Assembly (NCBI GenBank): GCA_964606525.1
Contig: CAZSHH010000004.1
Span: 1,558-65,557 of the forward strand
Direction: 5' to 3'
DNA length: 64,000 bases
From: an uncultured Dehalococcoidales bacterium
GTDB taxonomy: Bacteria > Chloroflexota > Dehalococcoidia > Dehalococcoidales > UBA2162
A program made the translations under genes and the position numbers. Numbering within the stretch: the first letter of the stretch is position 1; each line of letters opens with the position of its first letter. The notes beneath the pieces are model-generated. The model did no database searches and was not told the DNA's origin. It saw nothing but the letters and a program-made list of their open reading frames with translations. Positions 6,758 through 46,510 of the stretch are shown here, one piece after another.

Positions 6758-6760
6758 GCT

Positions 6761-10812: not shown

Positions 10813-11610
10813 ATGGCTAGTATTGCTGTTGAAAACGAAGCTAGTGAAGTCGCCCGGCAGCTCTTCGGCTCACGTAAAGCTGCCCGGGCGGACTTTACCC
10901 GGCAGTTGCTGGAAACGTATGACCGGAGCCAGGATAAGGATTTTCTAGTTATCCATAATCCCGGGGGGTGGGGTTGTTCCAGCCTGGACCGCTGTTTGGA
11001 TTGGGAGAAAAGTATCGTGGAAGGGGTGAAATCGACCATCGATCATATGGGTTACAGTTCGATATTAACCCAGTATTTCCGTACCCGGGACAGCATCTGG
11101 TCCCACTTCATGGATATCCGGGAACAAATAAGCTTCTTTTTTCAAGGACATTACAGCCAGGCGCGGGTATTGGCTGCCGAATTGAAATTCCTTGTCGAAC
11201 ACTCTGACCGTTTAAAGATCGTCATGGTCGGTGTCAGCCAGGGCGCGGGCTTTAGCAATACCGTTTTGCGCAATCTCGGTGAAGTGCACGGCGTATACAG
11301 TATCGAGTTGGGGACCATGTTTGTTCATGTTCCCCGGCGCGTGGTTAATGATCATACCCTGGCGATCGATAATAATGGCATTGTCCCCGACCCTTTCGTC
11401 AAGTGCGATCTTTGGGCGGGTATCACAGCTTATGCCGCAGCTTCGCTGCGCTGGTTGAAATACCAGGCGATCCGTAAACCAAAACGTTTTACCAGGTGCG
11501 TGCATATGCCGGGGCACGACTATAGTTGGGAATATCCCGGCGTGAAACCAAAGATAGAGACCTTCCTGAAAACCAGGTTTGGCCGGAAGGCGGAGGAAAA
11601 GCGATCATGA
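10813..11610 (+). CDS. hypothetical protein with a GxSxG (GVSQG) nucleophile-elbow-like motif
   Basis: 265-aa ORF. No family recognised. Its stop overlaps the clpC start (ATGA at 11607-11610), so it is translationally coupled within the hspR operon. Confidence 0.6.
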   Translation: MASIAVENEASEVARQLFGSRKAARADFTRQLLETYDRSQDKDFLVIHNPGGWGCSSLDRCLDWEKSIVEGVKSTIDHMGYSSILTQYFRTRDSIWSHFMDIREQISFFFQGHYSQARVLAAELKFLVEHSDRLKIVMVGVSQGAGFSNTVLRNLGEVHGVYSIELGTMFVHVPRRVVNDHTLAIDNNGIVPDPFVKCDLWAGITAYAAASLRWLKYQAIRKPKRFTRCVHMPGHDYSWEYPGVKPKIETFLKTRFGRKAEEKRS

Positions 11611-20608: not shown

Positions 20609-20640
20609 CAGGTCTCCTTTATACGTGCAATATGTCACGA

Positions 20641-22813: not shown

Positions 22814-23584
22814 TTACATATGTACCGGGATGCCTCTTTCCTTGAGATAATTTTTCGCCTGCATAATCGAGATTTCTTTAAAATGGAAGATGGAAGCAGC
22901 CAGCACCGCCGAGGCTTTGCCTTCGCTTACCGCCTGGTATAAATGCTCCAGTTTACCAGCGCCGCCGGAAGCGGTTACCGGAATACCAACGGCTTCCGCT
23001 ACCGCACGGGTCATCTCGATATCGTATCCTTCCTTAGTACCATCGGCATCCTTACTGGTCAACAATATCTCTCCGGCGCCAAGCTGTTCTACTTTCCTGG
23101 CCCAGGCCACCAGCTCAAGCCCGGTCGCTTCGCTACCACTTTTTACGACCACTTCCAGCCGTGGTACTTTCCCACCCCGGGGATTTTTCCGGGCATCGAT
23201 CGCCACCACTAAGTGCTGTTTGCCAAATTGTCGGGCAGCTTGTTTAATAAGGTCGGGAGATTTTACTGCCGCTGTATTGATGGAGACTTTATTCACCCCA
23301 AGATCAAAAAGGGTTTTCATGTCTTCCAGGTTGCCGATACCCCCGCCTACGGCGAAAGGTATGGTAACCACATCACACACCCGTTTTACCCACTCCAGCA
23401 TGGTCTTGCGGGCTTCGACCGTAGCAAAAATATCGAGGAAAACGAGTTCATCGGCCCCTTCCTTACTATATGCCATTGCCGCTTCCACCGGATCCCGGGC
23501 ATCTCTTAATCCTTCGAACTTGACACCTTTGACCACCCGGCCGTTCCTGATATCAAGGCAGGGAATTATCCTAATTTCCTTCAC
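22814..23584 (-). CDS. second HisF-type (beta/alpha)8 cyclase paralogue
   Basis: 256-aa [47 protein letters not shown] and ASGGAG are canonical HisF motifs. Its start overlaps the nrpR-like gene by 14 nt. Confidence 0.85.
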   Translation of the reverse strand: MKEIRIIPCLDIRNGRVVKGVKFEGLRDARDPVEAAMAYSKEGADELVFLDIFATVEARKTMLEWVKRVCDVVTIPFAVGGGIGNLEDMKTLFDLGVNKVSINTAAVKSPDLIKQAARQFGKQHLVVAIDARKNPRGGKVPRLEVVVKSGSEATGLELVAWARKVEQLGAGEILLTSKDADGTKEGYDIEMTRAVAEAVGIPVTASGGAGKLEHLYQAVSEGKASAVLAASIFHFKEISIMQAKNYLKERGIPVHM

Positions 23585-24581
23585 GAAGCAGCTCCAAAAA
23601 ATTAGTCAAGCCGTGGTAATCGAACACGGTTGACATACTGTGGTTCTCCACTGCGATCCCGGCTTCCTGCGCTGCAGTGACCGGATTAAGGCCGCCGGTC
23701 AGGATCAAGCCGACCTTGTTCGGTTGAACCGCTACCTCACAGACCGGTTCACTAGGAGCACCTTTAACCAGCACCCCATCGATACCGGAAGCGTTTAATC
23801 CGCTCAGGACTTCCTCTACCACGGGGACACACATCGCAGGTATTTCCCGGAAATTTGCCAGGATCTCGCCGTTCCCGGAAGAAAGAACCTCATTGACCGA
23901 AGTCATGCGGGCTTTGATAAATATTTCTGTCGGATCCAGTGAGCAGCCGTCATAATTAATGATTTCGGTAAAGCGGGTCGGCCGGCCGTCGTTGAACTGT
24001 AAAATACCGCTGAACCGGGAATCCATGGGCACTCCCGCCTTCAGTAAAGTACCATTTATCACAATACTGCATACGGTACCGAAGCCGATCTGATCATCCG
24101 GGACTAGCAGGTCGCCGATGCGTTGTCCCGCCTGGGCAACCGCTACCAACTGGCTGGCACAATAGTTTTTCTCAAAAGCCGGCCTCATCAGCCGTATTGC
24201 CTGAGGGAAATCCGTTTTGTTGAAAAAGGATACGTTCAGCGGCACATTACCATTACATCTCTTGTGATCGAAGGTCGTGCGGAAAGCCAGGAGTTCGATC
24301 TTGGTAATCGCAAAACCGACCTTATCTTTGACTAAGGCGCTTTTTATCTCTGCCTGCCCTTTTTCGGTAATAACCCGGCCGTCCTGGTTGCCTTTTAAAG
24401 CGGTCAAACCTCGCTCATCCATGATTTTTAAATGATATCTGACCGCTCTCTCACTTAAAACCACGCCGTGGTCCTTAAGCTGATGGGCAATCAACCTGCC
24501 CCCCATTGGTTGCTGGCTGGTCTGGAGCACTCTTAATATGGAGAGTATTTTTCTATCGACATCCCGCCGTTCGAAAGTCAT
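23571..24581 (-). CDS. nrpR: NrpR-type nitrogen repressor homologue (wHTH plus DUF128 domain)
   Basis: 336-aa ORF. The N-terminal segment ...GGRLIAHQLKDHGVVLSERAVRYHLKIMDERGLT...GRVITEKG closely follows the methanogen NrpR N-terminus as I remember it. The remainder has the length of one DUF128 module. Confidence 0.72.
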   Translation of the reverse strand: MTFERRDVDRKILSILRVLQTSQQPMGGRLIAHQLKDHGVVLSERAVRYHLKIMDERGLTALKGNQDGRVITEKGQAEIKSALVKDKVGFAITKIELLAFRTTFDHKRCNGNVPLNVSFFNKTDFPQAIRLMRPAFEKNYCASQLVAVAQAGQRIGDLLVPDDQIGFGTVCSIVINGTLLKAGVPMDSRFSGILQFNDGRPTRFTEIINYDGCSLDPTEIFIKARMTSVNEVLSSGNGEILANFREIPAMCVPVVEEVLSGLNASGIDGVLVKGAPSEPVCEVAVQPNKVGLILTGGLNPVTAAQEAGIAVENHSMSTVFDYHGLTNFLELLREGN

Positions 24582-25636: not shown

Positions 25637-27046
25637 TTATCTGCGGTATACTGTTTTCCCAGCCATCCTTGACCGGTTCAAGCGCTTGCTTAAGTGCAAG
25701 CCTTCCAAGATAAACTCGATGGCGGCAGCTACCGACTCCAGGTTCTCGGAATTTTCGATCGATTTTACCGCCTCGGCCAGGCCGGGGATATCTTTTAAGC
25801 CCTTGATGTAGGATCTGGCGCCCATGGTTTCAGAGACCTCTACGGTAAATCCAGAACTAAAACGGGCGACGATCTCTTCCAGTCTGGATACCTGATAATG
25901 GCGGTTGAACACGAGCAGTACTGCTTTACGGGTAAGGTCATCCAGTATCTTTTCTTCCCTGGTATCTTCAAAGCTCTCTAACTCGATCTTACCGGTGGTA
26001 GAAGCTATCAGGAAGGGGAGATCAGTGATCCGGGGCACAGCGGTCTTCTCGCCGAGAGAGACCGCCCGTCGAATGGCATTGGCGATGGCGGTCTCATAAT
26101 TAGCAATCGATACCCGGACACTGACACCGGAACGCTGATTAATGTCCGAACTCCGTCGACCCAGGTGGGTGATTTCGGCGATTATTTCTTTCATATATCC
26201 CGGTACAAAAACCTGAAAGTCATCGCCGTGGAACCGCCGCCGTTCCTGGTCCATGATGGTAATCTCATCATTGATGGTCATCGGATAATGCGTTCTGATC
26301 TGGGCACCATACCGGTCTTTAAGGGGTGTGATGATACGGCCGCGGCTGGTATAGTCTTCCGGATTCGCGCTGGCTACCAGCAGGACATCGAGTGGTAAAC
26401 GAAGGCGGTATCCCCTGATTTGGATGTCGCTTTCTTCCATAAGGTTGAAAAGGCCTACCTGCAGCCTTTCCGCCAGGTCAGGCAATTCATTGATACAGAA
26501 AATGCCCCGGTTGGTGCGCGGTATCAGGCCGTAGTGTATCGTTAATTCATCCGACAGGTATCTACCTTCAGCGACTTTTATAGGATCGACATCCCCGATC
26601 AAGTCGGCGATCGTTATATCAGGCGTCGCCAGTTTTTCGCCGTAACGGTTCGCTCGCGGCAACCATGCTATTTCCGTAGCATCACCTTCAGCAGCTACCC
26701 GGTCACGGCAGGACCGGCAGATCGGAGACATTGGATTATCATTAACCTCACAGCCCTGAATTACCGGGACCTCATCATCCAGCAGGTTGATCAATAAACG
26801 CATAATACGTGATTTAGCCTGGCCGCGTTCACCAAGAAAGATGATATCCTGGCCTGAAATCACCGCATTTTTTACCTGGGGAATGACGGTGTCACTGTAA
26901 CCTATTATTCCCGGGAAAATCTCAATCTTATCCCGAATCATGCGGATGAGGTTGCGCCTGAGTTCTTCGCGAACGGATACCGGCTGATATCCGGAAGCTT
27001 TCAAATCACCTATTGTTTTCGCCTTCGTGTTCGGTCCCTTTGTCAT
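25637..27046 (-). CDS. AAA+ ATPase, Mg-chelatase ChlI / sigma-54-interaction-domain-like
   Basis: 469-aa ORF. Walker A-like GERGQAKS, Walker B FCINELPD, and a Cys cluster C..N....PIC.SC. Confidence 0.75.
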   Translation of the reverse strand: MTKGPNTKAKTIGDLKASGYQPVSVREELRRNLIRMIRDKIEIFPGIIGYSDTVIPQVKNAVISGQDIIFLGERGQAKSRIMRLLINLLDDEVPVIQGCEVNDNPMSPICRSCRDRVAAEGDATEIAWLPRANRYGEKLATPDITIADLIGDVDPIKVAEGRYLSDELTIHYGLIPRTNRGIFCINELPDLAERLQVGLFNLMEESDIQIRGYRLRLPLDVLLVASANPEDYTSRGRIITPLKDRYGAQIRTHYPMTINDEITIMDQERRRFHGDDFQVFVPGYMKEIIAEITHLGRRSSDINQRSGVSVRVSIANYETAIANAIRRAVSLGEKTAVPRITDLPFLIASTTGKIELESFEDTREEKILDDLTRKAVLLVFNRHYQVSRLEEIVARFSSGFTVEVSETMGARSYIKGLKDIPGLAEAVKSIENSENLESVAAAIEFILEGLHLSKRLNRSRMAGKTVYRR

Positions 27047-31693: not shown

Positions 31694-34090
31694 TTATCTA
31701 AGCGTTGCCCCAAATTCCTTTTCCAGTTTTGCTATCATCTGTTTCATGATGGCACTGACAGCATCATCGGTCAGGGTTTTGTTGGGTGATTGGAAGGTAA
31801 TACGGTAGGCCAGTGACTTTTTCCCCGCTGGTACTTGTTCTCCCGAATACACATCAAACAAGGTAACTTCTTCAATAAGAGGAAAGCTTCTTATGATGTC
31901 GATCGCCTGCCGGTGGGTTACTTTCGTGTCGACGACAACAGCAATATCCCGTACCACAGATGGAAAGCGGGGTAATGGTTTATAGCTTTTCCAGGAAGCA
32001 AACATTGATACCAGGACAGGTAAGTCCAATTCGAACAGGTAGACCGGGCCGGAAATTTCAAATTTTTCGCGGACACGGGGATGGACCTCGCCAACAACGC
32101 CCAGTTTTACAGCACCGGCGATGACGGTGGCCTGTAAATCCGCCGCCAGTGTGGGGTCATCACCGGGGACAAAATCAGCCTTAATATTAAAATGCTGCAA
32201 AATTACTTCGGCCAGGCCCTTTACGGTGAAGTAGTCTGGTTTTTTTTCTTCATCCTGCCACCATTTTGTTTCACCGGCTCCGCTGATGACGCCGCATAGT
32301 ATATCGCGCTCATCCGGAAGATCATTTTCCCGGGGTACAAACACTTTACTGGTTTCGACCAGGCGGATAATACCTTCCCCCGACCGCTGGTTGAGGGCTA
32401 ATACCGACAACAGGTTTGCTCTCAGCGTCGGCCGCAGGTATTCCTGTTCCACGGTCATCGGGTTCGATAGCCGTAAGGCTTCGATATGGGTACCGGCGGG
32501 AGTCAGTTTGTTCAACATCTCCGTGCCGATCATAGAAGGAGTCATGATCTCATCAAAGCCGAAGCCGGTGAGGATGTCCCTGGCTTCCCTCTTGATTTTT
32601 ATTGAGAGCAGCGGGTCCTGGGATGGGATAGGCTGGGATAATAAAGTCACCGGAATCTTGTCGTAACCATTGATGCGGGCAATCTCTTCCACCAGGTCTT
32701 CGGTAATCCGGATATCGCTGCGCCAATAAGGCGGGGTAACTACGACTGCGTTTCCTGCAGGATCTACCTTACATTCAAATCCGAGAGACATGAAGATCTC
32801 CGTCATGCGTTCACAGCTGACTTCAATGCCAAGCACTCGTTTTACCTGGGCTGCCGACAGGGTGATCGAAGCAACCGGTTTTTTACCTGGATAGACATCG
32901 ATGATGCCTCTGGCGGCTTCGCCTCCGCCCAACTCCTTGATCAACTGGGTCGCCCGTCTTAAAGCAGGAATCGTCAAATCAGGACGAATGCCCCTCTCAT
33001 AACGGGTAGCAGCTTCACTGGATACACCAAGGTTCCGGCCGGTATAGTGAATATTTGCCGGGTTGAAATTTGCCGATTCAAGGAGAATCGAGGTGGTGTT
33101 TTCGGTGACCTCAGTATTAGCTCCGCCCATGACACCAGCCACGGCGATAGCTCGTTCGGTATCGGCGATCACCAGGGTATTCGCAGTTAACTCACGGTCG
33201 GTACTATCCAGAGTTTGCATCTTCTCACCCGACTTTGCCCGGCGCACGATGATTTTATGTCCCTGTATCCGGTCAAAGTCGAAGGAGTGCAAGGGTTGTC
33301 CGTACTCCAACATCACGAAATTAGTGATATCGACGATGTTATTGATAGGGCGCATACCGCCGGCAATCAGACGTTGTTTCATCCACTCCGGCGACTCTGC
33401 GATATGAATACCCTTGATCAAAGCAGCCGCATAGCGGGGGCATAAATCCGGTGCTTGAATTTCAACGGTAAACTGCTGATCGATGGGGGGTTCTGCTTCA
33501 TCATAGGCATCAGCGGGCAAGCGTACATGTTTACCGGTTAATGCAGCAATTTCACGGGCAATACCGATAACCGACAGGCAGTCAGGGCGGTTAGGTGTAA
33601 TTTCCAGGTTATAGTAGGCATCACTCATATACGCCGCCAGGGGAACTCCCACCGGGGCATCTGGCGGTAATACCAATATCCCGGTATGATTATCCGAAAT
33701 CCCCAGTTCCTTCTCGGAACAGATCATACCACTGGAAGATATGCCGCGGATTTTCGCTTCTTTCAACACTGCTTTTGTACCGGTATGGCCGTCGATTAAC
33801 TCAGCCCCAACACGGGCGAAAGCAATTTTATCACCGATATTGAGATTCGGTGCCCCGCAGACAACGGTAGCCTCTTCATTTCCCAGGTCTACGGTTGACA
33901 ACCGCAGGCGGTCGGCATTGGGATGGGGATTGACAGCCTTTATTTGTCCCACGGTTACCTTGTCCCAATTACCCCCGATAATCTGGGTACTCTTAACCTC
34001 CATCCCGGCCATGGTAAGGCTCTCCGCCACCTTAGCCGCAGGCAGGTCAATGTCTAGATAGTCTTGTAACCATTTTAAAGAAGTTTTCAT
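31694..34090 (-). CDS. pheT: phenylalanyl-tRNA synthetase beta subunit
   Basis: MKTSLKWLQDYLDIDL..., with tRNA-binding, B3/4, B5 and FDX-ACB-like regions. The ATG at 34090 overlaps the upstream stop (ATGA). Confidence 0.93.
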   Translation of the reverse strand: MKTSLKWLQDYLDIDLPAAKVAESLTMAGMEVKSTQIIGGNWDKVTVGQIKAVNPHPNADRLRLSTVDLGNEEATVVCGAPNLNIGDKIAFARVGAELIDGHTGTKAVLKEAKIRGISSSGMICSEKELGISDNHTGILVLPPDAPVGVPLAAYMSDAYYNLEITPNRPDCLSVIGIAREIAALTGKHVRLPADAYDEAEPPIDQQFTVEIQAPDLCPRYAAALIKGIHIAESPEWMKQRLIAGGMRPINNIVDITNFVMLEYGQPLHSFDFDRIQGHKIIVRRAKSGEKMQTLDSTDRELTANTLVIADTERAIAVAGVMGGANTEVTENTTSILLESANFNPANIHYTGRNLGVSSEAATRYERGIRPDLTIPALRRATQLIKELGGGEAARGIIDVYPGKKPVASITLSAAQVKRVLGIEVSCERMTEIFMSLGFECKVDPAGNAVVVTPPYWRSDIRITEDLVEEIARINGYDKIPVTLLSQPIPSQDPLLSIKIKREARDILTGFGFDEIMTPSMIGTEMLNKLTPAGTHIEALRLSNPMTVEQEYLRPTLRANLLSVLALNQRSGEGIIRLVETSKVFVPRENDLPDERDILCGVISGAGETKWWQDEEKKPDYFTVKGLAEVILQHFNIKADFVPGDDPTLAADLQATVIAGAVKLGVVGEVHPRVREKFEISGPVYLFELDLPVLVSMFASWKSYKPLPRFPSVVRDIAVVVDTKVTHRQAIDIIRSFPLIEEVTLFDVYSGEQVPAGKKSLAYRITFQSPNKTLTDDAVSAIMKQMIAKLEKEFGATLR

Positions 34091-34740
34091 TGTCCACTTT
34101 CCGGTGTAATGGGATATGACGGCAAAGCGGGGCTGATATTCATCCACTTCTCCACGAAATCATCAGTGCCGCGTACAGAATAAACCGAATCGCCGATGAT
34201 TGCCATATTGGTGATATATTCCAGGGTACCCCCCACCGGTAATCGTACCGGTAACAAATATCCATCCCGGGCAGCCCGTATCTGCAGGATAAAGGATATT
34301 TGCGGTTTACTTAATCCGGAATATACGGTATCAGTATCATCCGCTTGCAGCCAGTTGGTCAACTCAGTTAAAGAATTGAAATGGCGGGGATATTTGATGG
34401 TTTTCAACTGGTTCGCCTGATCGGTAATAGTCTCCTGGTTAGAGGAAACCTGTTTGTTGAGCGAGGTTACCTGGTTTTCAGCCTCATTGAGATCTTGTTC
34501 CAATGAGGTGGATTTAGATTTTTCCTGGTTAAGTTGTGTCTGTAATGAAGATGCATTACCCTGTAAAGTCGTAACCTGGCCTTGTAAAGAAGCTACCTGG
34601 GCTTCGGACGCATTAAGATCCTTTTGTAGATTACCTTTCTGGACGGCAAACACAATAGTCGCTACCAGCAAGGCTATGACAACAACCGCTGCAACACCCA
34701 TGGTAATCCATCTCGTCATCGGTTTATTTAGTTCTGCCAT
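34087..34740 (-). CDS. hypothetical membrane-anchored coiled-coil protein
   Basis: 217-aa ORF. One N-terminal TM helix, about 90 aa of Q/S/L-rich heptad-like repeats, then a globular C-terminal domain. Inserted between pheS and pheT and translationally coupled to pheT. Confidence 0.7.
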   Translation of the reverse strand: MAELNKPMTRWITMGVAAVVVIALLVATIVFAVQKGNLQKDLNASEAQVASLQGQVTTLQGNASSLQTQLNQEKSKSTSLEQDLNEAENQVTSLNKQVSSNQETITDQANQLKTIKYPRHFNSLTELTNWLQADDTDTVYSGLSKPQISFILQIRAARDGYLLPVRLPVGGTLEYITNMAIIGDSVYSVRGTDDFVEKWMNISPALPSYPITPESGQ

Positions 34741-39374: not shown

Positions 39375-40175
39375 GTGGACATGATTGTGTGCTGTAAGCA
39401 AGTCCTTGACCCGGAAGCACCACCGGCAAGTTTCAAAATCGACCCTGCAACAAATAAAGTAATTCCCCCACAAGGGGTTCCCCCCGTTATCAGCCCATTT
39501 GATGAGCAAGCGGTAGAAGCAGCTTTACGCGTGAAAGATGCTAAAGGCGGAAAAATTACCGTCATCAGCCTGGGCATCAATCTCTTGAGAGACGTAGTGA
39601 AAAAACCTTTATCGATGGGTGCCGACGAACTGGTCTTATTAGAAGATCCCGCATACGTGGACGGGGATTCCTGGTCGACGGCCTACGCCTTGGCAATGGC
39701 CATTAAGAAGATCGGAAAATTCGACCTTATTTTCTGCGGCCGGCAAGCCGCAGACTGGGATTCGGGACAGGTAGGTTCCGGAATTGCCGAAATTCTCGGC
39801 CTGCCCAGCGTGACTATCGCCAAAAAAGTTGAAGCACTTGATGGCAAAGCACGCGTAGAACGTATCACCACTGATGGCTTTGAAGTAGTGGAAGTTGCCT
39901 TGCCGGCGGTAATCACGGTAACTAATGAATTAGGGGCGGCTCGTTATCCCACGATCAAGGGGATCATGGGTGCCAAACGGAAAGAACCGATCATCTGGAA
40001 ACCCGCCGATATCGGCGCCGATGCAGCTAAATTGGGTGCCGCCGGAAGACGCACCAAGATAGCCAAATTATTCCAGCCGGTCAAAGAAGCCAAATGTGAA
40101 ATAATTACCGGTGAGACTCCGGAGGAAGCAGCGGTGAAGCTGGCCTTAAAGCTACGGGAAGCAAAAACACTGTAA
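39375..40175 (+). CDS. etfB: electron transfer flavoprotein beta subunit
   Basis: 266-aa ORF, (MD)MIVCCKQVLDPE.... GTG at 39375 is 10 nt after GAGGAGG. Alternative ATG at 39381. Confidence 0.9.
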   Translation: MDMIVCCKQVLDPEAPPASFKIDPATNKVIPPQGVPPVISPFDEQAVEAALRVKDAKGGKITVISLGINLLRDVVKKPLSMGADELVLLEDPAYVDGDSWSTAYALAMAIKKIGKFDLIFCGRQAADWDSGQVGSGIAEILGLPSVTIAKKVEALDGKARVERITTDGFEVVEVALPAVITVTNELGAARYPTIKGIMGAKRKEPIIWKPADIGADAAKLGAAGRRTKIAKLFQPVKEAKCEIITGETPEEAAVKLALKLREAKTL

Positions 40176-40236
40176 TAAATGATGCCGGTTATACCCACGA
40201 AGATGTGAAAACCGGTAGTTTACAGGAGAGAATAGA

Positions 40237-41229
40237 ATGGCGAATGGAATATTGATATTCAGTGAAATTATTGAAGGCAAGCTGGCTTCGGTAACCACCG
40301 AACTACTCGGCTGCGGGCGTAAGTTGGCTGGTGAAACCAACCAGGGGCTTTCTGGCGTACTGATTGGAAATGGGGTAAGTAATTTCTCTGCGCAACTCAT
40401 AAGTTATGGAGCGGATAAAGTATATCTGGTCGAAGACCCCCTGCTGACCGATTACCAGACCGAAACATACCTGACCGTCATGGAAAAAGTAATTAAAGAG
40501 GCCGATCCCCAAATCATCCTCTTCAGTCAAACCGCGATCGGCCGTGACCTGGCACCCCGGCTGGCATTCCGTTTGGGTACCGTTGCTACCATGGACTGCG
40601 TGGCCGTCGAAGTAGACCCGCAGACCAAACGGCTGCTGCCGACCAAACCGGTCTATGGCGGGAATGCGCGGGCAGTATACAGTTATGATTCTGACCCCCA
40701 GATAGCGACCATCCGGGCAAAAGCCGTGTCTGCCCTGGAACCGGATGCTAACCGGAAAGGCGAAGTGATCAACATCGCTGCCGGTATCGAACCGGCTGCG
40801 GTACGGGCAAAAGTGGTCCAGAAAGTTAAAGAAGAAGTTAAGGGGGTAAAACTCGAAGAAGCTCCCGTCATCATTAGCGGCGGACGCGGCATTGGCGGGC
40901 CAGACGGTTTTAAGGAATTGGATGCCATCGCCAAATTGTTAAAAGGAGCTGTCGGAGCCAGCCGCCCGGCGTGTGACAGCGCCTGGATGCCTGATACCGC
41001 CCAGGTTGGCCTGACCGGTAAAGTAGTCACCCCGGACCTCTATATCGCCGTTGGCATCTCCGGCTCGAGCCAACATATGGCTGGATGCTCAGGTGCTAAA
41101 GTTATCGTAGCGATCAATAAGGACCCGGAAGCGAACATTTTTAAAGAAGCCCGATATGGAGTCGTTGGCGACTGGAAGAAAATTATCCCCGCTTTCACTC
41201 AGAAACTAAAAGAGTTGTTGGCTCAATAA
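40237..41229 (+). CDS. etfA: electron transfer flavoprotein alpha subunit
   Basis: 330-aa ORF. C-terminal FAD-binding motifs (SRPACDSAWMP...QVGLTGKVV.P.LYIAVGISGSSQH). Confidence 0.9.
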   Translation: MANGILIFSEIIEGKLASVTTELLGCGRKLAGETNQGLSGVLIGNGVSNFSAQLISYGADKVYLVEDPLLTDYQTETYLTVMEKVIKEADPQIILFSQTAIGRDLAPRLAFRLGTVATMDCVAVEVDPQTKRLLPTKPVYGGNARAVYSYDSDPQIATIRAKAVSALEPDANRKGEVINIAAGIEPAAVRAKVVQKVKEEVKGVKLEEAPVIISGGRGIGGPDGFKELDAIAKLLKGAVGASRPACDSAWMPDTAQVGLTGKVVTPDLYIAVGISGSSQHMAGCSGAKVIVAINKDPEANIFKEARYGVVGDWKKIIPAFTQKLKELLAQ

Positions 41230-41394: not shown

Positions 41395-42009
41395 ATGGTA
41401 AAGTACACGCGGCAAAACGAATCGTCATCCTCCGTAAAAAAAAGCCGGATACTGGATAAAGCCGGAACCCTGTTCTGGAGAAAGGGTTATCACAGCACCA
41501 GTATGCGAGACATCGCCAGTGCCTGCAACTGCAAAGCAGCCAATATCTACAATTATTTCGCCGGTAAAGAAGACATCCTTTTTGAAGTTACCCGGGATAT
41601 CCATGAACGGGCGGTAGCCTCGGTGAAACACCTGGATGAGGATGAGGTGACCAGTCCGGTAGAACAATTACGCTCGTTGGTCAAGAGTCATTTTGGATTG
41701 CTGGTACGCATGAAACGTTCCAGTATCCTGATATCAGATACCGGGCTGAAAGACCTATCGACCGAACACCGTAAAGCAATTGTCCAGCTTCGTGACATCT
41801 ATGATAACATCATGGGTAAGGTCATTGAGCGGGGTATTAAACAAGGAATTTTCGAAGTAAAGGATATTAAAGTAACGATCTACTTAACTTCTTCCGTGAT
41901 AATCAGAAGTACTATCTGGTTCTCACCAAAAGGCCGGTTATCAGTCGATGAAGTCGGTGAAATCATGTTCGATTACGTATATCGCGGCATAAAAGTGGAA
42001 AAGAAATAA
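41395..42009 (+). CDS. TetR/AcrR family transcriptional regulator
   Basis: 204-aa ORF with the TetR HTH signature (F..KGYH.TSMRDIA.A........Y.YF..KE.IL). Confidence 0.85.
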   Translation: MVKYTRQNESSSSVKKSRILDKAGTLFWRKGYHSTSMRDIASACNCKAANIYNYFAGKEDILFEVTRDIHERAVASVKHLDEDEVTSPVEQLRSLVKSHFGLLVRMKRSSILISDTGLKDLSTEHRKAIVQLRDIYDNIMGKVIERGIKQGIFEVKDIKVTIYLTSSVIIRSTIWFSPKGRLSVDEVGEIMFDYVYRGIKVEKK

Positions 42010-42058: not shown

Positions 42059-42598
42059 ATGCTGGAAATTGCCGATACCATGCTCCTGGTAATTGATGTT
42101 CAGGAAAAACTATTCCGGGTCATGCATGATAAGGAAAACCTGTTGCTAAACCTGCAAAAATTATTACAGGGAATACAGGTTTTGGAAGTTCCAGTATTAG
42201 TGACCGAACAATACCCCCAGGGACTGGGTCCCACACTTCCCGACATCTCATCAATAATTCCGGGATTCGATCCGGTCTCCAAGATTAGTTTCAGCTGCTG
42301 GCAACATGATGAATTCAAAAACCGATTGATCAAGCAAAATCGTAAACAAATCCTTATTTCCGGTATCGAAGGACATATCTGCGTTTATCAGACTGCCTGT
42401 GATTTGATCAAGAACGGATATCAAGCCCATGTAGTAACGGATACGGTATCGTCCCGGACTTCCTTTAACCGCCAGCTTGCTCTTGATATGATGCAGCAAG
42501 CCGGTGCCCGGTTGACCGGAACCGAGACCGTGCTTTTCGAATTACTCAAGGCCGCCCAGGGAGATCAATTTAAAAAGATCAGCCAGATTGTCAAGTGA
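42059..42598 (+). CDS. isochorismatase-family (cysteine) hydrolase
   Basis: 179-aa ORF. LLVIDVQEK, ...ISGIEGHICV... (catalytic Cys context). SD GGAGGG. Confidence 0.82.
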   Translation: MLEIADTMLLVIDVQEKLFRVMHDKENLLLNLQKLLQGIQVLEVPVLVTEQYPQGLGPTLPDISSIIPGFDPVSKISFSCWQHDEFKNRLIKQNRKQILISGIEGHICVYQTACDLIKNGYQAHVVTDTVSSRTSFNRQLALDMMQQAGARLTGTETVLFELLKAAQGDQFKKISQIVK

Positions 42599-42616
42599 AA
42601 GGATAGTGACTATAAT
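42588..42616 (+). promoter_or_regulatory. candidate sigma-70 promoter P1 of selenoprotein gene 1
   Basis: TTGTCA, 17 nt, TATAAT. The -35 element lies in the last codons of the hydrolase gene. The 11-mer TATAATCATTA is shared with P2. Confidence 0.5.
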
Positions 42617-42723
42617 CATTAACAAAACATAGCAAGTTAACTCCGGGCAATTTTACCGATACCCTTTGATGATAACGACTAAATGACATCGATTTGACGA
42701 ATACTAAAGGAGAAGGAAGAGCC

Positions 42724-44481
42724 ATGCCAGCAAAAAAATTTAAATGCCTCAACCCTGTCGGTATCCAGGAACCAATCACGCTTTACCCTCTTGCACCGCG
42801 GCTAGATAAGCTTGACGGTAAAACGATCTATGTCAGCATCAATGCCGGCGGCGACCAGGACATTACGATTCCCTTACTCAAACGGCTGCCGCAGGACTAT
42901 CCTAATGTCAACTGGAAAATCAAGCGGCAGTTCGGATTCAGTGCGGAATTAACCGACGAAGAAAAAAAGGATGCCGATGCCGTCATCGCCGGCGTCATCT
43001 GGTGACACGGTGCGATCTGGGAACAGTTGTTCCAGGTTGCCGACAACGAACAGTCAGGTATTCCCACAGTGTCCATGCTGTATGCTGACCAGGATGAAGC
43101 CTTCGTCCAGGCCGGGAAAATGAGCGGTTCCCCCCACCTGCGCAGAATTCACGTTTCCCGCACTTTACCCGGGCCGGTGGACGTGGATGGCTTTATTGGG
43201 TCTTTACTGGACGGCTTGGTCCGGCCTCTAACTAAAGAAGAAAAATCCGGTGGTGTGTATGAGATCAATAATGACCGGATACTTTTTGAAGGAACGCTCG
43301 AAGCAGCCCAGGAATTTTACATGCAGTCCGAGAAGATCCCCACTCTCCGATATAATGCTCCGATCGCGAAATATACCGACGGCCTGCCCATCATCGTGCC
43401 CACGGAAGAACGGGTAGCGGCCATGCTCAAGGGTACCAGCCATAAACCGGACGAGTTTATCGTGCATCAAACCGACCGGGCGGAATTTGCTTTCCAGGCG
43501 AAAGGGCACAAGATAGAAAAAGGTACGCCGGTTAAGTTTATGCCGCTGAAACGTACGGCCACGGTCGAAAGAGTCGCCGTAAACGCGGTGATGGCCGGGT
43601 GCCGGCCGGAGTATTTCCCGGTAGTGCTGGCAATCGCTGAAGCGGGTGGGGGCGGTGGTTCAGATGGGCGGGGCAGCCAGGGCTACGTGGTCAGCGGTCC
43701 GATTTCCAAGGAAATCGGCATGAATTTCGATGTCGGTATCTTTGGCCCGGGTAACCCGGCGAACCGCAGTATCGGCCGGGCGGCCGAACTGATGTGGCGG
43801 AACTTCGGCGGCAACGTCCCGAATGTCACCAATGTGGGTGTAATGGGGTCACCACTGTTCAACTGCATTCCGGAAGACCTCGATAACCTCCCGCCGGGTT
43901 GGCGCGGCTTGAACGAAGAGTACGATTTCAAGCGCAGTGAAAGTATCATTTACGTGATGAACCTCGGCCGCGGCGGCACGACTAACATCCACCGCACCGA
44001 ATTTTCTCCCGGCGGATACCGTGCTTTCCAGAAATCCGGCCACGGTGGTATTGCCCGGCGCCTCGGGGTCAAAGGTGTACCCGGCTCTAAGAACTGGTTG
44101 GGCTATCTCATCCCCGGTGTCTGGCATGATCGTGAAGGCGGTATTACTTTCCTGATGCTGCCCCAGATGGCCCGCCATCTTTACGAAGCCGGTTTCAAGA
44201 CCAAGGACGAGGTCTATGAGTGGATCTACAAGCAGAGCTTCCGGCCGCTGCGCGAATACCGGACGCATTCCTGGGTCGATGTTAATACGGCCTCCTGGAC
44301 AGGTATCGAACGCACTTCCGGCAAACCCTGGAAGGAATTATCCGACGATTACCTGGTTCCCTTTGTGAACGATCCCTGGGAAAGCTGCATCATTGTCACT
44401 GGCGGCGGCGAAGAATATCCGCAATGGGTGGGTGCCCGCCGTCCTGGTATTAAACCTATCAATATCGACTACTGGCGCTAA
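42724..44481 (+). CDS. candidate selenoprotein, copy 1 (585 codons, in-frame TGA = Sec94 at 43003-43005)
   Basis: ATG at 42724 follows AAAGGAGAAGGA. The 93-aa and 484-aa ORFs of the track are in the same frame and are joined by TGA plus 7 conserved codons. A SECIS-like hairpin follows. A paralogue with identical architecture lies downstream. Confidence 0.75.
43012..43040 (+). promoter_or_regulatory. SECIS-like hairpin downstream of UGA (copy 1)
   Basis: GCGAUCUGG-G(bulge)-AAC-[AGUU]-GUU-CCAGGUUGC. 12 pairs including 2 G-U. The apical loop starts 19 nt after the UGA and contains GU. Confidence 0.6.
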
Positions 44482-44503
44482 CAACACCGATTTGTCATCA
44501 AGC

Positions 44504-44542
44504 AAGAAGCTGGAGGGAAAAATCCTCCAGCTTCTTTTTTCT
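44504..44542 (+). terminator. intrinsic terminator after selenoprotein gene 1
   Basis: AAGAAGCTGGAGG-gaaaaat-CCTCCAGCTTCTT followed by TTTTCTTT. Confidence 0.85.
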
Positions 44543-44592
44543 TTGCCGGGACGATAGTGGCTTTTCGATTTTAACATTACCAGAAAGCCGCA

Positions 44593-44621
44593 TTGTAAAG
44601 GTGTTGGATTGGCGATATAAT
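44593..44621 (+). promoter_or_regulatory. candidate sigma-70 promoter P2 of selenoprotein gene 2
   Basis: TTGTAA, 17 nt, TATAAT, followed by the same CATTA as P1. Confidence 0.5.
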
Positions 44622-44692
44622 CATTACAATTTTCACCAACATTGTCATATTATCGTAAATGTTTGTAAGGATTTTAAGGAGACGGAATCACT

Positions 44693-46450
44693 ATGCCAGA
44701 AAGAAAATATAAGTGTCTGAATCCTGTTGGTATCCAGGACCCGGTAAAAATCTATCCTTTAGCTCCCAGGCTTGACAAGATCGACGGTAAGACCATCTAT
44801 GTCTGTATAAATGCCGGCGGCGACCAGGATATCACGATCCCGCTGCGCAAGCGGCTGCCCGCTGATTACCCGAACGTCAACTGGAAGATGAAGCTGAATT
44901 ACGGTTTCAGTGCTCAATTGACCGATGAGGAAAAGAAAGATGCTGACGCTGTGATTGCCGGCGTCATCTGGTGACACGGCGCTATCTGGGGACAGTTGTT
45001 CCAAGTAGCGGAAAATGAACAAGCCGGCATTCCAACCGTATCTCTACTATATGCCGACCAGGATGAATGTTTCCACCAGGCTGCGCTGATGAGTGGCTCT
45101 CCCAATCTCCGGCGCGTGCACGTATCCCGAACCCTCCAGGGGCCGGAAGATGTCGACCGTTTTCTGCCTGTGATGCTGGAGGCCCTGGTCCGTCCCTTAG
45201 CAAAGGATGAAAAGGCAGTTGGGAAGCTGGAACTGGCAGACGACAGGGTACTCTTTGAAGGTACCATGGAGGCAGCATATGAATTCTATACGCAGACGGA
45301 AAATATTGCTGCTCTGAAAAATAATGTACCGATCGCCAAGTATACCGACGGCCTGCCGATCGTGGTTCCTACGGAAGAAAAGGTGGCATTAATGCTCAAA
45401 GGTACCAGCCATAAAGCGGATGAATTGATCGTGCAAACCAGGGAACACGGCGGCTTGCCAATGGGCATGGGGGTACCCCGGAAGAAAGGCGACCCGGTCT
45501 TATTCCAACCGCTTAAAAGAAGAGCGACAGTGGAAAAAGTAGCGATCAATGCCGTGATGGCCGGATGTAAACCGGAATATATGCCTTTATTGCTGGCGAT
45601 CGCAGAAGCGGGCGGGGGCGGCGGTGGAGACGGCCGCGGCAGCCAGGCTTTCATCGTCAGCGGCCCTTATTCCAAAGAGATCGGTATGAACTGCGACGTC
45701 GGCATCCTCGGCCCGGGCAATCCGGCCAACCGGAGCATCGCCCGCGCCGCCGAACTGATGTGGCGCAACTTCGGGGGGAATATCCCTGCTGTCACCAACT
45801 GCGGCGTGATGGGAGCGCCGCTCTTCAACTGCATCCCAGAAGACCTCGATAATCTACCGCCGGGTTGGCGCGGTCTGAATGAAGAATACGATTACAAGAA
45901 AAACGAGAGTATCGTCTATGCTGCTAATATCGGGCGGGGCGGTTCTACCAACATTCACCGCACCGAATTCTCTCCGGGCGGCTACCGGGCTTTCCAGAAA
46001 TCCGGCCACGGCGGGATTGCCCGCCGTTTGGGCGTCAAAGGCAAACCCGGTCCCAAGAACTGGCTGGAATACATGCTGCCCGAACTCTGGGCCGGCCGTG
46101 AAGGCGGCATCACCTTCCTGATGCTGCCCCAGATGGCGCAAGCCCTCTGCGATGCCGGTTTCAAGACGAAGGATGAGGTCTACGAGTGGATCTATAAAGC
46201 CAGCTTCCGGACTGTCCGCGAATACCGCGCCCATTCCTGGCCTGATGTGCAGACCAACGCCTGGAATGCTGTAGAAAAAGTCTCCGGGAAGCCCTGGAAA
46301 GATCTGTCCGACGATGCCCTGGTGCCCTTTGTCAGCGAGCCTTATGAAAATTGTATTATCGTGACCGGCGGTGGCGAAGAGTATCCCCAGTGGCTGGGGG
46401 CCCGCCGGAACATGGGCAACCCGGCATACAGTATCGACACCTGGCGATAA
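44693..46450 (+). CDS. candidate selenoprotein, copy 2 (585 codons, in-frame TGA = Sec94 at 44972-44974)
   Basis: ATG at 44693 follows TAAGGAGA. Same split-ORF geometry and same frame (44693 and 44996 are both 2 mod 3). The flanks DADAVIAGVIW-TGA-HGAIW are identical to copy 1. Confidence 0.75.
44980..45010 (+). promoter_or_regulatory. SECIS-like hairpin downstream of UGA (copy 2)
   Basis: CGCUAUCUGG-G(bulge)-GAC-[AGUU]-GUU-CCAAGUAGCG. Same geometry as copy 1, with one C-A mismatch and one compensated pair. Confidence 0.55.
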
Positions 46451-46476: not shown

Positions 46477-46510
46477 AAAAAAGACCGGGGGTAACTCCCC
46501 GGTCTTTTTT
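46477..46510. terminator. bidirectional intrinsic terminator (selenoprotein gene 2 and DUF2812 gene)
   Basis: AAAAAGACCGGGG-gtaact-CCCCGGTCTTTTTTT, with an A-run upstream and a T-run downstream. Confidence 0.85.

What the first reader, a model, noticed from the sequence alone, without database searches (positions are those of the whole stretch)
42724..46450. Tandem paralogous genes each split by a conserved in-frame TGA: candidate undescribed selenoprotein pair
In both copies the ORF track shows a small ORF ending in TGA. It is followed 21 nt later by a 484-aa ORF that only 'starts' at TTG.
- The two pieces are in the same frame in each copy. 42694 and 43027 are both 1 mod 3. 44693 and 44996 are both 2 mod 3.
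- The 7 codons between the TGA and the TTG are conserved as protein (HGAIWEQ vs HGAIWGQ). Nucleotide differences here and just downstream are mostly synonymous third positions (ggt/ggc, gcg/gct, cag/caa, gtt/gta, gcc/gcg).
- No SD precedes either TTG.
- The residues flanking the TGA are identical (DADAVIAGVIW-TGA-HGAIW).

Reading TGA as Sec gives two proteins of exactly 585 codons with Sec at residue 94. They align without gaps and look roughly two-thirds to three-quarters identical by eye (not computed). TGA is an ordinary stop elsewhere in the window (argH, degV, ABC permease, hisH), so a global UGA reassignment does not explain this. A nonsense mutation at the same codon in both copies is also unlikely.
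Basis: partly seen in the sequence, partly recalled or inferred. Interest (0 to 1): 0.9.

Follow-up and report, generated by a model that had tools for sequence, protein, structure and literature searches.

The report
Unannotated selenoprotein gene pair, Dehalococcoidales
Two neighbouring genes each carry a conserved in-frame TGA that almost certainly encodes selenocysteine, and they belong to a large, multi-copy enzyme family of Dehalococcoidales bacteria that public databases split into two "hypothetical proteins".

Summary
Copy A (42724-44481) and copy B (44693-46450) are each 585 codons, with TGA at codon 94, and are 75% identical.

The selenocysteine reading is strongly supported:
- All 60 family copies in 49 Dehalococcoidales genome loci plus the window have TGA at this codon, never TAA, TAG or a Cys codon.
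- One full-length homologue (P0045) has Cys there.
- The 18 nt after the TGA vary mainly at third codon positions, so they are translated.
- A hairpin starts 10 nt after the TGA. Its C-AGUU-G apex is invariant in 60/60 copies. That includes a Leu codon fixed as TTG, which is only 12% of Leu codons in these genes. Stem pairs covary.
- Each copy has its own promoter-like site, Shine-Dalgarno sequence and terminator.

The N-terminal ~150 residues are a divergent UGSC-type domain, a known selenoprotein family, and Sec sits where the U of UGSC sits. The C-terminal ~440 residues match no Pfam or NCBIfam model and no solved structure.

So the pair is not fully undescribed at domain level. It is an unannotated, Sec-dominated, highly paralogous variant that lacks the UGSC resolving Cys.

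Sec machinery could not be checked: the window has none and the rest of the genome was not available. The biochemical function is unknown.

The parts
42588..42616 (+). Promoter-like site for copy A (TTGTCA-17-TATAAT, 11/12)
   Evidence: Consensus scan. It is a consensus match only. It lies about 100 nt upstream of the ATG at 42724.
42707..42721 (+). Shine-Dalgarno region of copy A (AAGGAG, 11 nt before the ATG)
   Evidence: Sequence read directly.
42724..44481 (+). Copy A: a single 585-codon selenoprotein gene (Sec94), stop TAA
   Evidence: It is 94% identical to L001.
42748..43161 (+). UGSC-like N-terminal domain of copy A (residues 9-146); it spans the TGA
   Evidence: Pfam PF24696, 18.1 bits, residues 9-144. 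Relatives with the same architecture pass the threshold.
43003..43005 (+). Sec codon (TGA) of copy A, codon 94
   Evidence: It aligns with Cys99 of P0045.
43012..43040 (+). SECIS-like hairpin of copy A (GCGAUCUGG-G-AAC AGUU GUU CCAGGUUGC); apical loop AGUU at 43025-43028
   Evidence: dG -15.2 kcal/mol, z -2.0.
43600..43602 (+). Invariant Cys293 (VMAGC motif) of copy A; candidate partner of Sec94
   Evidence: Invariant in 46/46 full-length Sec forms. The partner role is inference only.
44504..44536 (+). Intrinsic-terminator-like hairpin after copy A
   Evidence: 14-bp stem followed by a T run.
44593..44621 (+). Promoter-like site for copy B (TTGTAA-17-TATAAT, 10/12)
   Evidence: It shares ATAATCATTA(A)CAA with the promoter of copy A.
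44676..44681 (+). Shine-Dalgarno AAGGAG of copy B, 11 nt before the ATG
44693..46450 (+). Copy B: a single 585-codon selenoprotein gene (Sec94), stop TAA
44717..45130 (+). UGSC-like N-terminal domain of copy B (residues 9-146)
   Evidence: Pfam PF24696, 21.3 bits. NF041046, 16.9 bits. Graft scan.
44972..44974 (+). Sec codon (TGA) of copy B, codon 94
44981..45009 (+). SECIS-like hairpin of copy B; apical loop AGUU at 44994-44997
   Evidence: dG -14.1 kcal/mol, z -1.9.
45566..45568 (+). Invariant Cys292 (VMAGC) of copy B
46477..46510 (.). Terminator-like hairpin after copy B; bidirectional, shared with the convergent DUF2812 gene

Best explanation
Each copy is one monocistronic gene, with its own promoter-like site, Shine-Dalgarno sequence, ATG and terminator.

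Recoding (supported by comparative sequence evidence; Sec insertion itself not demonstrated): the UGA at codon 94 is recoded co-translationally as selenocysteine by the standard bacterial route. In that route, SelB carrying Sec-tRNA(Sec) is recruited by a SECIS hairpin in the coding sequence. Here the hairpin occupies nt 10-38 after the U of UGA, with an invariant C-AGUU-G apex 19 nt after the codon. The product is a 585-residue, two-domain protein.

Placement of Sec (shown by homology): residues ~9-150 form a divergent UGSC-type alpha/beta domain. Sec94 sits at the end of a beta-strand and the start of a helix, at the position of the U in the UGSC motif.

C-terminal domain (shown): residues ~175-585 form a conserved domain with no family or structural assignment.

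Chemistry (inferred, low confidence): Sec94 is the catalytic redox or nucleophilic residue. The second Cys of UGSC is missing (the motif here is U-H/S-G-A). Sec94 may therefore cycle against the invariant Cys293 (VMAGC) of the C-terminal domain as a selenenylsulfide, acting on a small-molecule substrate held by that domain. The many paralogues per genome, in varied catabolic neighbourhoods, suggest different substrates for different copies.
For: 1. The TGA is conserved. 47/47 readable homologous loci from Dehalococcoidales genome bins (MAGs), at 52-94% identity, have exactly one in-frame stop, a TGA, at the aligned codon. A motif search that allowed any codon at the site found TGA in 60/60 copies. 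The same genes end mostly in TAA or TAG.
2. There is a Cys homologue. P0045 (585 aa, 59% identical, full coverage) reads GVVW-C-HGAIWEQ.
3. The 18 nt after the TGA are translated. Mean entropy by codon position is 0.32, 0.35 and 1.30. Homologues without Sec are continuous through this region. The Pfam UGSC domain spans residues 9-146, across the TGA.
4. There is a SECIS-like hairpin.
 - CAGTTG is invariant in 60/60 copies, although TTG is only 12% of Leu codons in these genes.
 - Pair 21-28 is G-C in 25 sequences, A-U in 22, G-U in 1 and unpaired in none. Pairs 18-31, 19-30 and 20-29 also covary.
 - The hairpin has dG of -14 to -17 kcal/mol and z of about -2 in five subfamilies, always with the same AGUU loop.
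 - The Cys form has Val where every Sec form has Leu(TTG).
5. Gene structure fits a single gene. A promoter-like site and AAGGAG precede each ATG, and a terminator follows each copy.
6. Sec sits at the UGSC position. Relatives with the same architecture pass the Pfam UGSC threshold at 51-67 bits. Grafting CGSC along the domain gives the best NF041046 score when its first Cys is on residue 94 (33.7 bits, against 14.8 for a neutral control).
7. Dehalococcoidia are known to use Sec heavily. BSepDB lists MAGs of this class with 46-49 selenoprotein genes (PMC13326102).
8. For the proposed chemistry: U94 and C293 are the only invariant Sec/Cys positions in 46 full-length sequences.
Against: - No selA, selB, selD or tRNA-Sec gene is in the 64-kb window or in the 49 fetched loci. 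The rest of the genome could not be searched.
- No Rfam family matches the hairpin. Rfam's coverage of bacterial SECIS elements may be limited (my understanding, not checked here), so this is weak evidence.
- Over 77 nt the folding energy is not better than shuffled sequence (z -0.2 and -0.4). Only the 42-nt segment reaches z of about -2.
- The covariation involves a few subfamily-level events among related sequences, so it cannot be treated as a formal probability.
A hairpin-loss control on Cys forms could therefore not be run.
- The proposed U94-C293 pairing is untested. The structural model is poor around residues 98-171. Distant family members lack one or both residues.
Confidence: 0.88

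Rival explanations
1. These are two separate genes per copy. Translation ends at the TGA, giving a 93-residue protein. A 484-residue protein is then started at the conserved TTG 21 nt downstream, with the G-rich run acting as a Shine-Dalgarno sequence. This is how public annotation currently reads the locus.
For: - Gene callers everywhere annotate it this way. 119 of the 120 best hits are fragments of about 420-500 aa, and most fragments of 470-495 aa begin at that Leu/TTG.
- About 360 N-terminal fragments, those listed nearly all 93-105 aa, are called as separate ORFs.
- The TTG is invariant and is preceded by GGGA/GGGG.
Against: - The 18 nt between TGA and TTG show a codon-periodic substitution pattern, so they are translated in frame.
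- The Cys form and the homologues without Sec are continuous across the site.
- The split would cut the UGSC domain (residues 9-146) in half.
- The stop is TGA in 60/60 copies and never TAA or TAG, unlike the genes' true ends.
- The G-run is only 4 nt from the TTG and pairs with downstream bases, with covariation.
- No promoter or strong Shine-Dalgarno sequence is specific to the downstream piece, whereas each ATG has both.
Confidence: 0.04
2. The UGA is read through, but as a standard amino acid (Trp, Cys, Gly or Arg) by near-cognate or programmed read-through. Selenocysteine is not inserted, and the hairpin only stimulates read-through.
For: The presence of Sec machinery in this genome is unverified. 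A hairpin 3' of a stop codon can stimulate read-through in other systems (general knowledge).
Against: - The aligned residue in the only sense-codon homologue is Cys.
- The site corresponds to the U/C of the UGSC selenoprotein motif.
- The hairpin's geometry fits the bacterial SECIS model as summarised in the reviews read and as I recall it for E. coli fdhF: an apical loop with G-U about 19 nt after the UGA.
- A sense codon would be a cheaper way to get any standard residue, yet TGA is kept in 60/60 copies.
- The class is rich in Sec users (PMC13326102).
Confidence: 0.05
3. These are pseudogenes. A nonsense mutation was inherited by both tandem copies, or arose in each independently.
For: None beyond the presence of a stop codon.
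Against: - The same TGA occurs in 60 copies, 58 of them in loci from about 20 MAGs, at 52-94% identity, with no other frame disruption.
- Synonymous changes far outnumber non-synonymous ones on both sides.
- 83 residues are invariant across 46 sequences.
Confidence: 0.01

Closest known systems
UGSC family (seleno)protein (Pfam PF24696; NCBIfam NF041046). First reported from the Olavius symbiont and GOS metagenomes (PMC1976440, PMC2398784).
   Same: - The N-terminal ~150 residues are homologous. The window proteins match weakly, and relatives with the same two-domain architecture match above threshold.
- Sec sits at the position of the U in the UGSC motif.
- Like UGSC in GOS (255 Sec forms against 21 Cys forms), Sec forms greatly outnumber Cys forms.
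   Different: - The window proteins score below both curated cut-offs: 18-21 bits against 25, and 12-17 bits against 125.
- The motif is U-H/S-G-A, without the second Cys.
- The protein is 585 aa rather than about 150 aa, because a ~440-residue domain is fused to it.
- The distribution is Dehalococcoidales, with many paralogues per genome.
'UGSC/Unknown_1 fusion' selenoproteins noted in the GOS survey (Zhang and Gladyshev 2008, PMC2398784, Figure S1A)
   Same: It has the same kind of architecture: a UGSC-type Sec domain fused to a conserved domain of unknown function.
   Different: I could not test whether Unknown_1 is the C-terminal domain found here. The figure is held only as an image, and the stored sequence supplement is cut before the UGSC section. 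Those sequences carry the UGSC motif and come from aquatic plankton.
UGSC-domain fusion proteins without Sec, sharing the same C-terminal domain (P0285, P0290, P0295, P0309, P0317; about 550-670 aa)
   Same: - They have the same two-domain architecture.
- They share the C-domain motifs TDGLP..PTE..V..ML.GTS, VMAGC/A.PE and GP.N.AN..IGRA.
- They share the C-terminal S[IV]D.WR motif.
   Different: - The Sec position holds Cys (P0285, GSCGG) or a non-redox residue (Gly, Thr, Met or Ser).
- There is no in-frame TGA.
- Identity is 35-45% in the C-domain.
- Some carry signal or membrane N-termini.
E. coli fdhF-type bacterial SECIS element
   Same: - It is a hairpin inside the coding sequence directly 3' of the UGA.
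- It has a small apical loop carrying G-U about 20 nt after the codon, and a bulged upper stem.
- It constrains the downstream codons (here Gln-Leu is frozen as CAG TTG). The fdhF features are from my own knowledge and from the reviews read.
   Different: - The loop and stem sequences are specific to this family.
- No curated RNA model matches.
- Binding by a Dehalococcoidales SelB is untested.
Glycine reductase selenoprotein B and D-proline reductase PrdB (PF07355, TIGR01917)
   Same: As a concept only: a Sec nucleophile (UxxC) in an alpha/beta domain that works with a separate substrate-binding module.
   Different: The native sequences give no hit. A weak TIGR01917 match (E 0.04) appeared only in an artificial variant carrying a grafted CGSC motif, so this is not evidence of homology.

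Membership tests
Bacterial selenoprotein gene (Sec-UGA recoding) | An in-frame TGA conserved at the same codon in orthologues and paralogues, with coding conservation on both sides | tested here: met
   TGA in 60/60 copies. Exactly one in-frame stop in 47/47 loci. A versus B, codons 1-93: 40 synonymous against 16 non-synonymous changes.
Bacterial selenoprotein gene (Sec-UGA recoding) | Homologues with Cys aligned to the TGA | tested here: met
   P0045 reads GVVW-C-HGAIW. This is the only such form among the 120 best hits of two searches. The more distant P0285 has GS-C-GG at the site.
Bacterial selenoprotein gene (Sec-UGA recoding) | A SECIS hairpin shortly 3' of the UGA, with G (G-U) in a small apical loop | tested here: met
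   The hairpin occupies nt 10-38. The AGUU loop lies 19 nt after the UGA and is invariant. Stem pairs covary. There is no Rfam match.
Bacterial selenoprotein gene (Sec-UGA recoding) | selA, selB, selC (tRNA-Sec) and selD present in the same genome | not testable with these tools
   None is in the window or in the 49 loci. At class level, Dehalococcoidia MAGs have 46-49 selenoprotein genes (PMC13326102).
Bacterial selenoprotein gene (Sec-UGA recoding) | Direct detection of Sec in the protein (mass spectrometry or 75Se) | not testable with these tools
   This needs an experiment.
UGSC family (PF24696 / NF041046) | A score at or above the curated cut-off of the family model | tested here: not met
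   Pfam: 18.1 and 21.3 bits against a cut-off of 25. NCBIfam: 12.4 and 16.9 bits against 125. Relatives with the same architecture do pass the Pfam cut-off (51-67 bits).
UGSC family (PF24696 / NF041046) | A U/C-G-S-C motif (Sec plus a resolving Cys three residues on) | tested here: not met
   The motif is U-H-G-A in most copies and U-S-G-A in one subfamily. No Cys follows within 3 residues.
UGSC family (PF24696 / NF041046) | Sec at the position homologous to the U of the motif | tested here: met
   The graft scan gives the best NF041046 score (33.7 bits) with the first Cys of CGSC on residue 94. Neighbouring positions give 23-30.5 bits and the neutral control 14.8 bits. This test is indirect.
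GrdB/PrdB selenoproteins (PF07355) | Sequence match of the native protein to the family model | tested here: not met
   No hit at E <= 1 for the native sequences. Only an engineered variant gave E 0.04.

The most novel reading that the evidence does not exclude
These genes may represent a large, so far unrecognised class of selenocysteine-dependent enzymes. Its defining feature would be a UGSC-type Sec 'arm' that works against an invariant Cys in a catalytic domain of a new fold. The class has expanded to several copies per genome in Dehalococcoidales (up to four in 12 kb, and five loci in one MAG). It may underlie substrate-diverse reductive or group-transfer chemistry in subsurface Chloroflexota, much as reductive dehalogenase paralogues do. 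If so, the selenoproteome of this class is substantially under-counted.
Probability: 0.3. Interest if true: 0.75.

Novelty: new variant of a known kind. Interest (0 to 1): 0.62.

Why it matters
- **Annotation.** Hundreds to thousands of database entries are mis-split into two 'hypothetical proteins'. NCBI-annotated MAGs are affected too, for example ACFLUG_04965 and ACFLUG_04970. One profile for the full-length protein would correct them and would raise selenoproteome counts for Dehalococcoidales.
- **Selenium biology.** Sec forms outnumber Cys forms by more than 100 to 1 among close relatives, and the family is kept in several copies per genome. This argues for chemistry in which selenium is hard to replace.
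- **Enzymology.** The C-terminal domain is confidently predicted, yet it has no family or structural neighbour. That makes it a defined target for structure determination and function discovery in an abundant, poorly cultured subsurface lineage.
- **RNA.** The hairpin with the invariant AGUU loop gives a lineage-specific SECIS signature. It could be used to find further selenoprotein genes in these genomes.

Tried and rejected
- **Cys forms in metagenomes.** I scanned metagenome contigs for the Cys-form pattern W-C-H-G-A-I-W. None of the 56 hits encodes a relative by tblastn.
- **DNA of the Cys homologue.** I could not test whether the hairpin decays in a Cys form. Only the Leu-to-Val change at the loop codon is visible, at protein level.
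- **Rfam.** Neither the gathering threshold nor a relaxed search gave a SECIS match.
- **tRNA-Sec.** ARAGORN found none in the window or in the 49 loci.
- **Sec machinery in the window.** Pfam scans of the window's larger ORFs found housekeeping genes only.
- **Other selenoprotein genes.** A search for other in-frame-TGA genes with a similar hairpin in the window and loci found only this family plus four implausible hits.
- **Solved structures.** A profile search of PDB sequences gave nothing. Foldseek of the AlphaFold model against the PDB gave no hit at E <= 0.001.
- **Better structural model.** The N-domain and the interface between domains therefore remain poorly modelled.
- **UGSC and 'Unknown_1' sequences from the GOS supplements.** The figure is an image and the sequence file is truncated.
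- **Literature.** Haft and Tolstoy 2025 (PMC12013261) is not held. BSepDB has no supplements held as text.
- **GrdB/PrdB relationship.** Considered and rejected, because the only match came from an artificial variant.
- **Global UGA reassignment.** Rejected, because TGA ends 9 of 44 long ORFs in the window.


Full report
**1. Observation**

| | Copy A | Copy B |
|---|---|---|
| ATG | 42724 | 44693 |
| TGA (codon 94) | 43003-43005 | 44972-44974 |
| TTG used by ORF finders | 43027 | 44996 |
| Stop (TAA) | 44479-44481 | 46448-46450 |

- Read through the TGA, each copy is 585 codons long.
- The two products are 75% identical (438/586), with one compensated single-residue indel.
- The flanks DADAVIAGVIW-TGA-HGAIW are identical.
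- Between A and B, the 93 codons before the TGA are 37 identical, 40 synonymous and 16 non-synonymous. The small upstream ORF is therefore under purifying selection as coding sequence.
- TGA is a normal stop elsewhere in the window. It ends 9 of 44 ORFs of at least 200 aa.

**2. The TGA is decoded, and as selenocysteine**

*Conservation of the codon.* A scan of one genome per species found 49 loci, all in Dehalococcoidales or Dehalococcoidia genome bins (MAGs).
- In 47 of 47 readable loci (52-94% identity) the match runs in one frame from residue ~1-6 to 585. It carries exactly one internal stop, a TGA, at the aligned codon.
- A motif search that left the codon free found 60 copies in the loci plus the window. 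All 60 have TGA. None has TAA, TAG or a Cys codon.
- The true 3' ends of the same genes are mostly TAA or TAG.

*A Cys homologue.* Among the 120 best database hits, 119 are fragments of about 420-500 aa. Nearly all of those in the 470-495 aa range begin at the Leu/TTG just after the TGA. One hit, P0045, is full length (585 aa, 59% identical) and reads GVVW-C-HGAIWEQ. A search seeded with P0045 again found it to be the only full-length form among its 120 best relatives, even at 82% identity. Cys is therefore a rare, recent replacement inside a clade of Sec forms.

*The stretch between TGA and TTG is translated.* Across 48 sequences, the mean entropy of the 18 nt after the TGA is 0.32, 0.35 and 1.30 for codon positions 1, 2 and 3. 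The residues encoded are H/S-G-A-I/V-W/K.

*The split would cut a domain.* The Pfam UGSC match covers residues 9-146. More distant homologues without Sec are continuous across the site.

*Gene structure.* Each copy has a near-consensus promoter-like site (42588-42616 and 44593-44621). Each has an AAGGAG 11 nt before its ATG, and each is followed by a terminator-like hairpin (44504-44536 and 46477-46510). Nothing comparable serves the 484-aa piece on its own.

**3. The recoding signal**

A hairpin starts 10 nt after the U of the UGA. In copy A it is GCGAUCUGG-G-AAC-AGUU-GUU-CCAGGUUGC.
- In a gap-free alignment of 48 sequences, the six bases C22-A23-G24-U25-U26-G27 are invariant. They are invariant in all 60 copies.
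- These bases are the codons CAG TTG (Gln-Leu). TTG is only 12% of Leu codons in these genes, so the synonymous sites are frozen.
- The upper stem covaries:

| Pair | G-C | A-U | G-U | Other |
|---|---|---|---|---|
| 21-28 | 25 | 22 | 1 | 0 |
| 20-29 | 15 | 14 | 6 | 13 |
| 18-31 | 36 | 4 | 7 | 1 |

- The 13 'other' cases at pair 20-29 fit a bulged-A register.
- One of these exchanges couples a synonymous change (GAA to GAG) to a Phe-to-Pro change.
- The paired fraction falls from 83.5% to 32-50% when the 3' partners are slid by 1-3 columns.
- Five subfamilies fold to the same AGUU tetraloop, with dG of -10 to -17 kcal/mol and z of -1.4 to -3.0 over 42 nt.
- A loop with G-U about 19 nt after the UGA fits the bacterial SECIS model, as I know it from E. 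coli fdhF and as summarised in the reviews read.
- The Cys form P0045 has Val where every Sec form has Leu(TTG). This is what relaxation of the RNA constraint would look like, but it rests on one sequence.

Caveats:
- The covariation comes from a few subfamily-level events.
- Rfam has no matching model.
- Over 77 nt the folding energy is unremarkable.

**4. Rival explanations**

- *Two coupled genes, stopping at TGA and restarting at TTG.* This is contradicted by the codon periodicity of the 'spacer', by the continuity of the Cys and non-Sec homologues, by the split UGSC domain, by the exclusive use of TGA, and by pairing of the G-run within a covarying stem.
- *Pseudogenes.* This is excluded by conservation in 60 copies, with 83 invariant residues.
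- *Global UGA reassignment.* This is excluded by normal TGA stops in the window.
- *Read-through as a standard amino acid.* This cannot be excluded formally without proteomics. It is disfavoured by the Cys homologue and by the match to the Sec position of a known selenoprotein family.

**5. What the protein is**

*N-terminal domain.* It matches only the UGSC family, and below threshold: Pfam 18.1 and 21.3 bits against a cut-off of 25, and NCBIfam 12.4 and 16.9 bits against 125. An exhaustive search with the C-terminal part found 2,877 clusters (at 50% identity) at E <= 0.001. Among them are proteins of about 550-670 aa with the same two-domain layout. Their N-domains pass the Pfam UGSC threshold at 51-67 bits. 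The architecture is therefore 'UGSC domain plus a large C-domain', and the window proteins are a divergent branch of it.

*Position of Sec.* I grafted a CGSC motif at each position from 90 to 98 of copy B's N-domain. The best NF041046 score (33.7 bits) came with the first Cys on residue 94. A neutral control scored 14.8 bits, and neighbouring positions 23-30.5 bits. Sec therefore sits where the U of UGSC sits. The second Cys is absent: the motif is U-H-G-A, or U-S-G-A in one subfamily.

*C-terminal domain.* It has no Pfam or NCBIfam match. A profile found no sequence relative in the PDB. An AlphaFold model of P0045 is confident for residues ~230-585 (pLDDT about 90) but poor for residues 98-171. 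Foldseek against the PDB found no match at E <= 0.001.

*Conserved residues.* In 46 full-length Sec forms the invariant residues include U94, G96, A97, H240, D243, E244, E282, C293 (VMAGC), S324-G325-P326, E330, N334, N347, F427, P429-G430, Y432-R433, K437, G441-G442 and the C-terminal D-x-W.

**6. Distribution and context**

- The window is chromosomal core DNA. It carries argG, argH, recG, clpB, glnA, hisAFH, ProRS, PheST, IF3, ThrRS, EF-G and mutS.
- Its closest relative is L001 (MAG MFD00905.bin.2.93), at 94% identity. L001 shares ThrRS, EtfB, EtfA, a TetR-family regulator, an isochorismatase-family gene and EF-G, and it carries both tandem copies.
- The family is strongly paralogous. The 49 loci hold 67 C-domain ORFs. 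L017 has four copies in 12 kb. One MAG (W31_56) contributes five loci.
- Copy B is no closer to copy A (75%) than to copies in other MAGs (up to 79%), so the duplication is old.
- Neighbours vary. They include short-chain dehydrogenases, cupin-like proteins, flavoproteins, MFS and ABC transport components, and CoA-ligase-like genes.
- In L003, L022, L048 and the P0045 contig, a class-V aminotransferase (SufS-like) and an IscU/NifU-like gene lie directly upstream.

**7. Mechanism**

*Supported by comparative evidence.* Each copy is one gene with Sec at codon 94, the UGA is followed by a conserved SECIS-like hairpin, and Sec sits at the UGSC position.

*Inferred.* Insertion depends on SelB. The machinery could not be checked for this genome.

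*Inferred, with low confidence.* Sec94 is the catalytic redox or nucleophilic residue. Without the UGSC resolving Cys, it may pair with the invariant Cys293 of the C-domain. The paralogues may differ in substrate. The occasional SufS/IscU neighbours could instead point to sulfur transfer or to an Fe-S centre. I could not tell these apart.

**8. Known or new**

- The UGSC family has been known since 2007-2008. The GOS survey mentions a 'UGSC/Unknown_1' fusion (PMC2398784). I could not establish whether that is the same fusion.
- A 2026 review gives a Pfam, NCBIfam or CDD model for each prokaryotic selenoprotein family it lists (PMC13188914). The window proteins reach the cut-off of no Pfam or NCBIfam model.
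- Every source name for the fragments is 'hypothetical protein'. This includes adjacent NCBI locus tags ACFLUG_04965 and ACFLUG_04970 for the two halves of one gene.
- I therefore classify this as a new variant of a known kind. The decoding mechanism and the Sec-domain superfamily are known. The subfamily is unannotated, has a different motif, carries a large uncharacterised fused domain, and shows an unusual expansion of paralogues.

**9. Limits**

- No Sec machinery was seen in the accessible sequence, and whole genomes could not be queried.
- There is no experimental evidence.
- The model of the N-domain and of the interface between domains is poor.
- The function is unknown.

Noticed in passing
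L003:2024-3883, L022:3889-5773, L048:4120-5928, and the P0045 contig: A class-V aminotransferase (SufS / cysteine-desulfurase-like, Aminotran_5) and a small IscU/NifU-like protein sit directly upstream of family members, on the same strand, in at least four independent contexts. This could mean sulfur or selenium transfer, or Fe-S cluster involvement.
   Followed up: partly
L017 (TGA sites at 916, 6274, 8295, 10269); L001:6274 and 8234; L016:6274 and 8109; L003:4339 and 6274: Tandem arrays of the family are common, with up to four copies within 12 kb. One MAG (W31_56, DAOULV01) contributes five separate loci. The tandem pair in the window is conserved in its closest relative, L001.
   Followed up: partly
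window 42606-42625 and 44611-44630: The two promoter-like regions share the string ATAATCATTA(A)CAA at and just after the -10 box. A TetR-family regulator gene lies upstream at 41395-42009. This may be a shared operator.
   Followed up: no
P0315 and P0380: Distant relatives consist of two tandem copies of the C-terminal domain and no UGSC domain. Most relatives that carry a UGSC domain end in the motif S[IV]D.WR at the extreme C-terminus. The C-domain is therefore an independent module of unknown fold, found in 2,877 clusters (50% identity) at E <= 0.001.
   Followed up: partly
window 23571-24581 (-): This gene encodes an NrpR-type regulator (PF01995 plus HTH_12), which I know mainly as an archaeal nitrogen repressor. 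It sits next to hisA, hisH and hisF, and about 3 kb from glnA (19262-20638), in what looks like a Dehalococcoidales chromosome.
   Followed up: no
window 6755-6763: The TGA stop of DegV (5909-6757) is in frame with the GTG start of RecG (6761). A scan for in-frame TGAs flags the pair, but they are two ordinary adjacent genes with unrelated Pfam domains.
   Followed up: yes
window 25637-27046 (-), 10813-11610 (+), 34087-34740 (-): Three sizeable ORFs (469, 265 and 217 aa) have no Pfam match at E <= 1e-5.
   Followed up: no
window 39375-41229 (+): EtfB and EtfA (electron-transfer flavoprotein) genes lie upstream of the TetR-family regulator, the isochorismatase-family gene and the selenoprotein pair. 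The arrangement is syntenic in L001. A functional link to the selenoproteins is not established.
   Followed up: no
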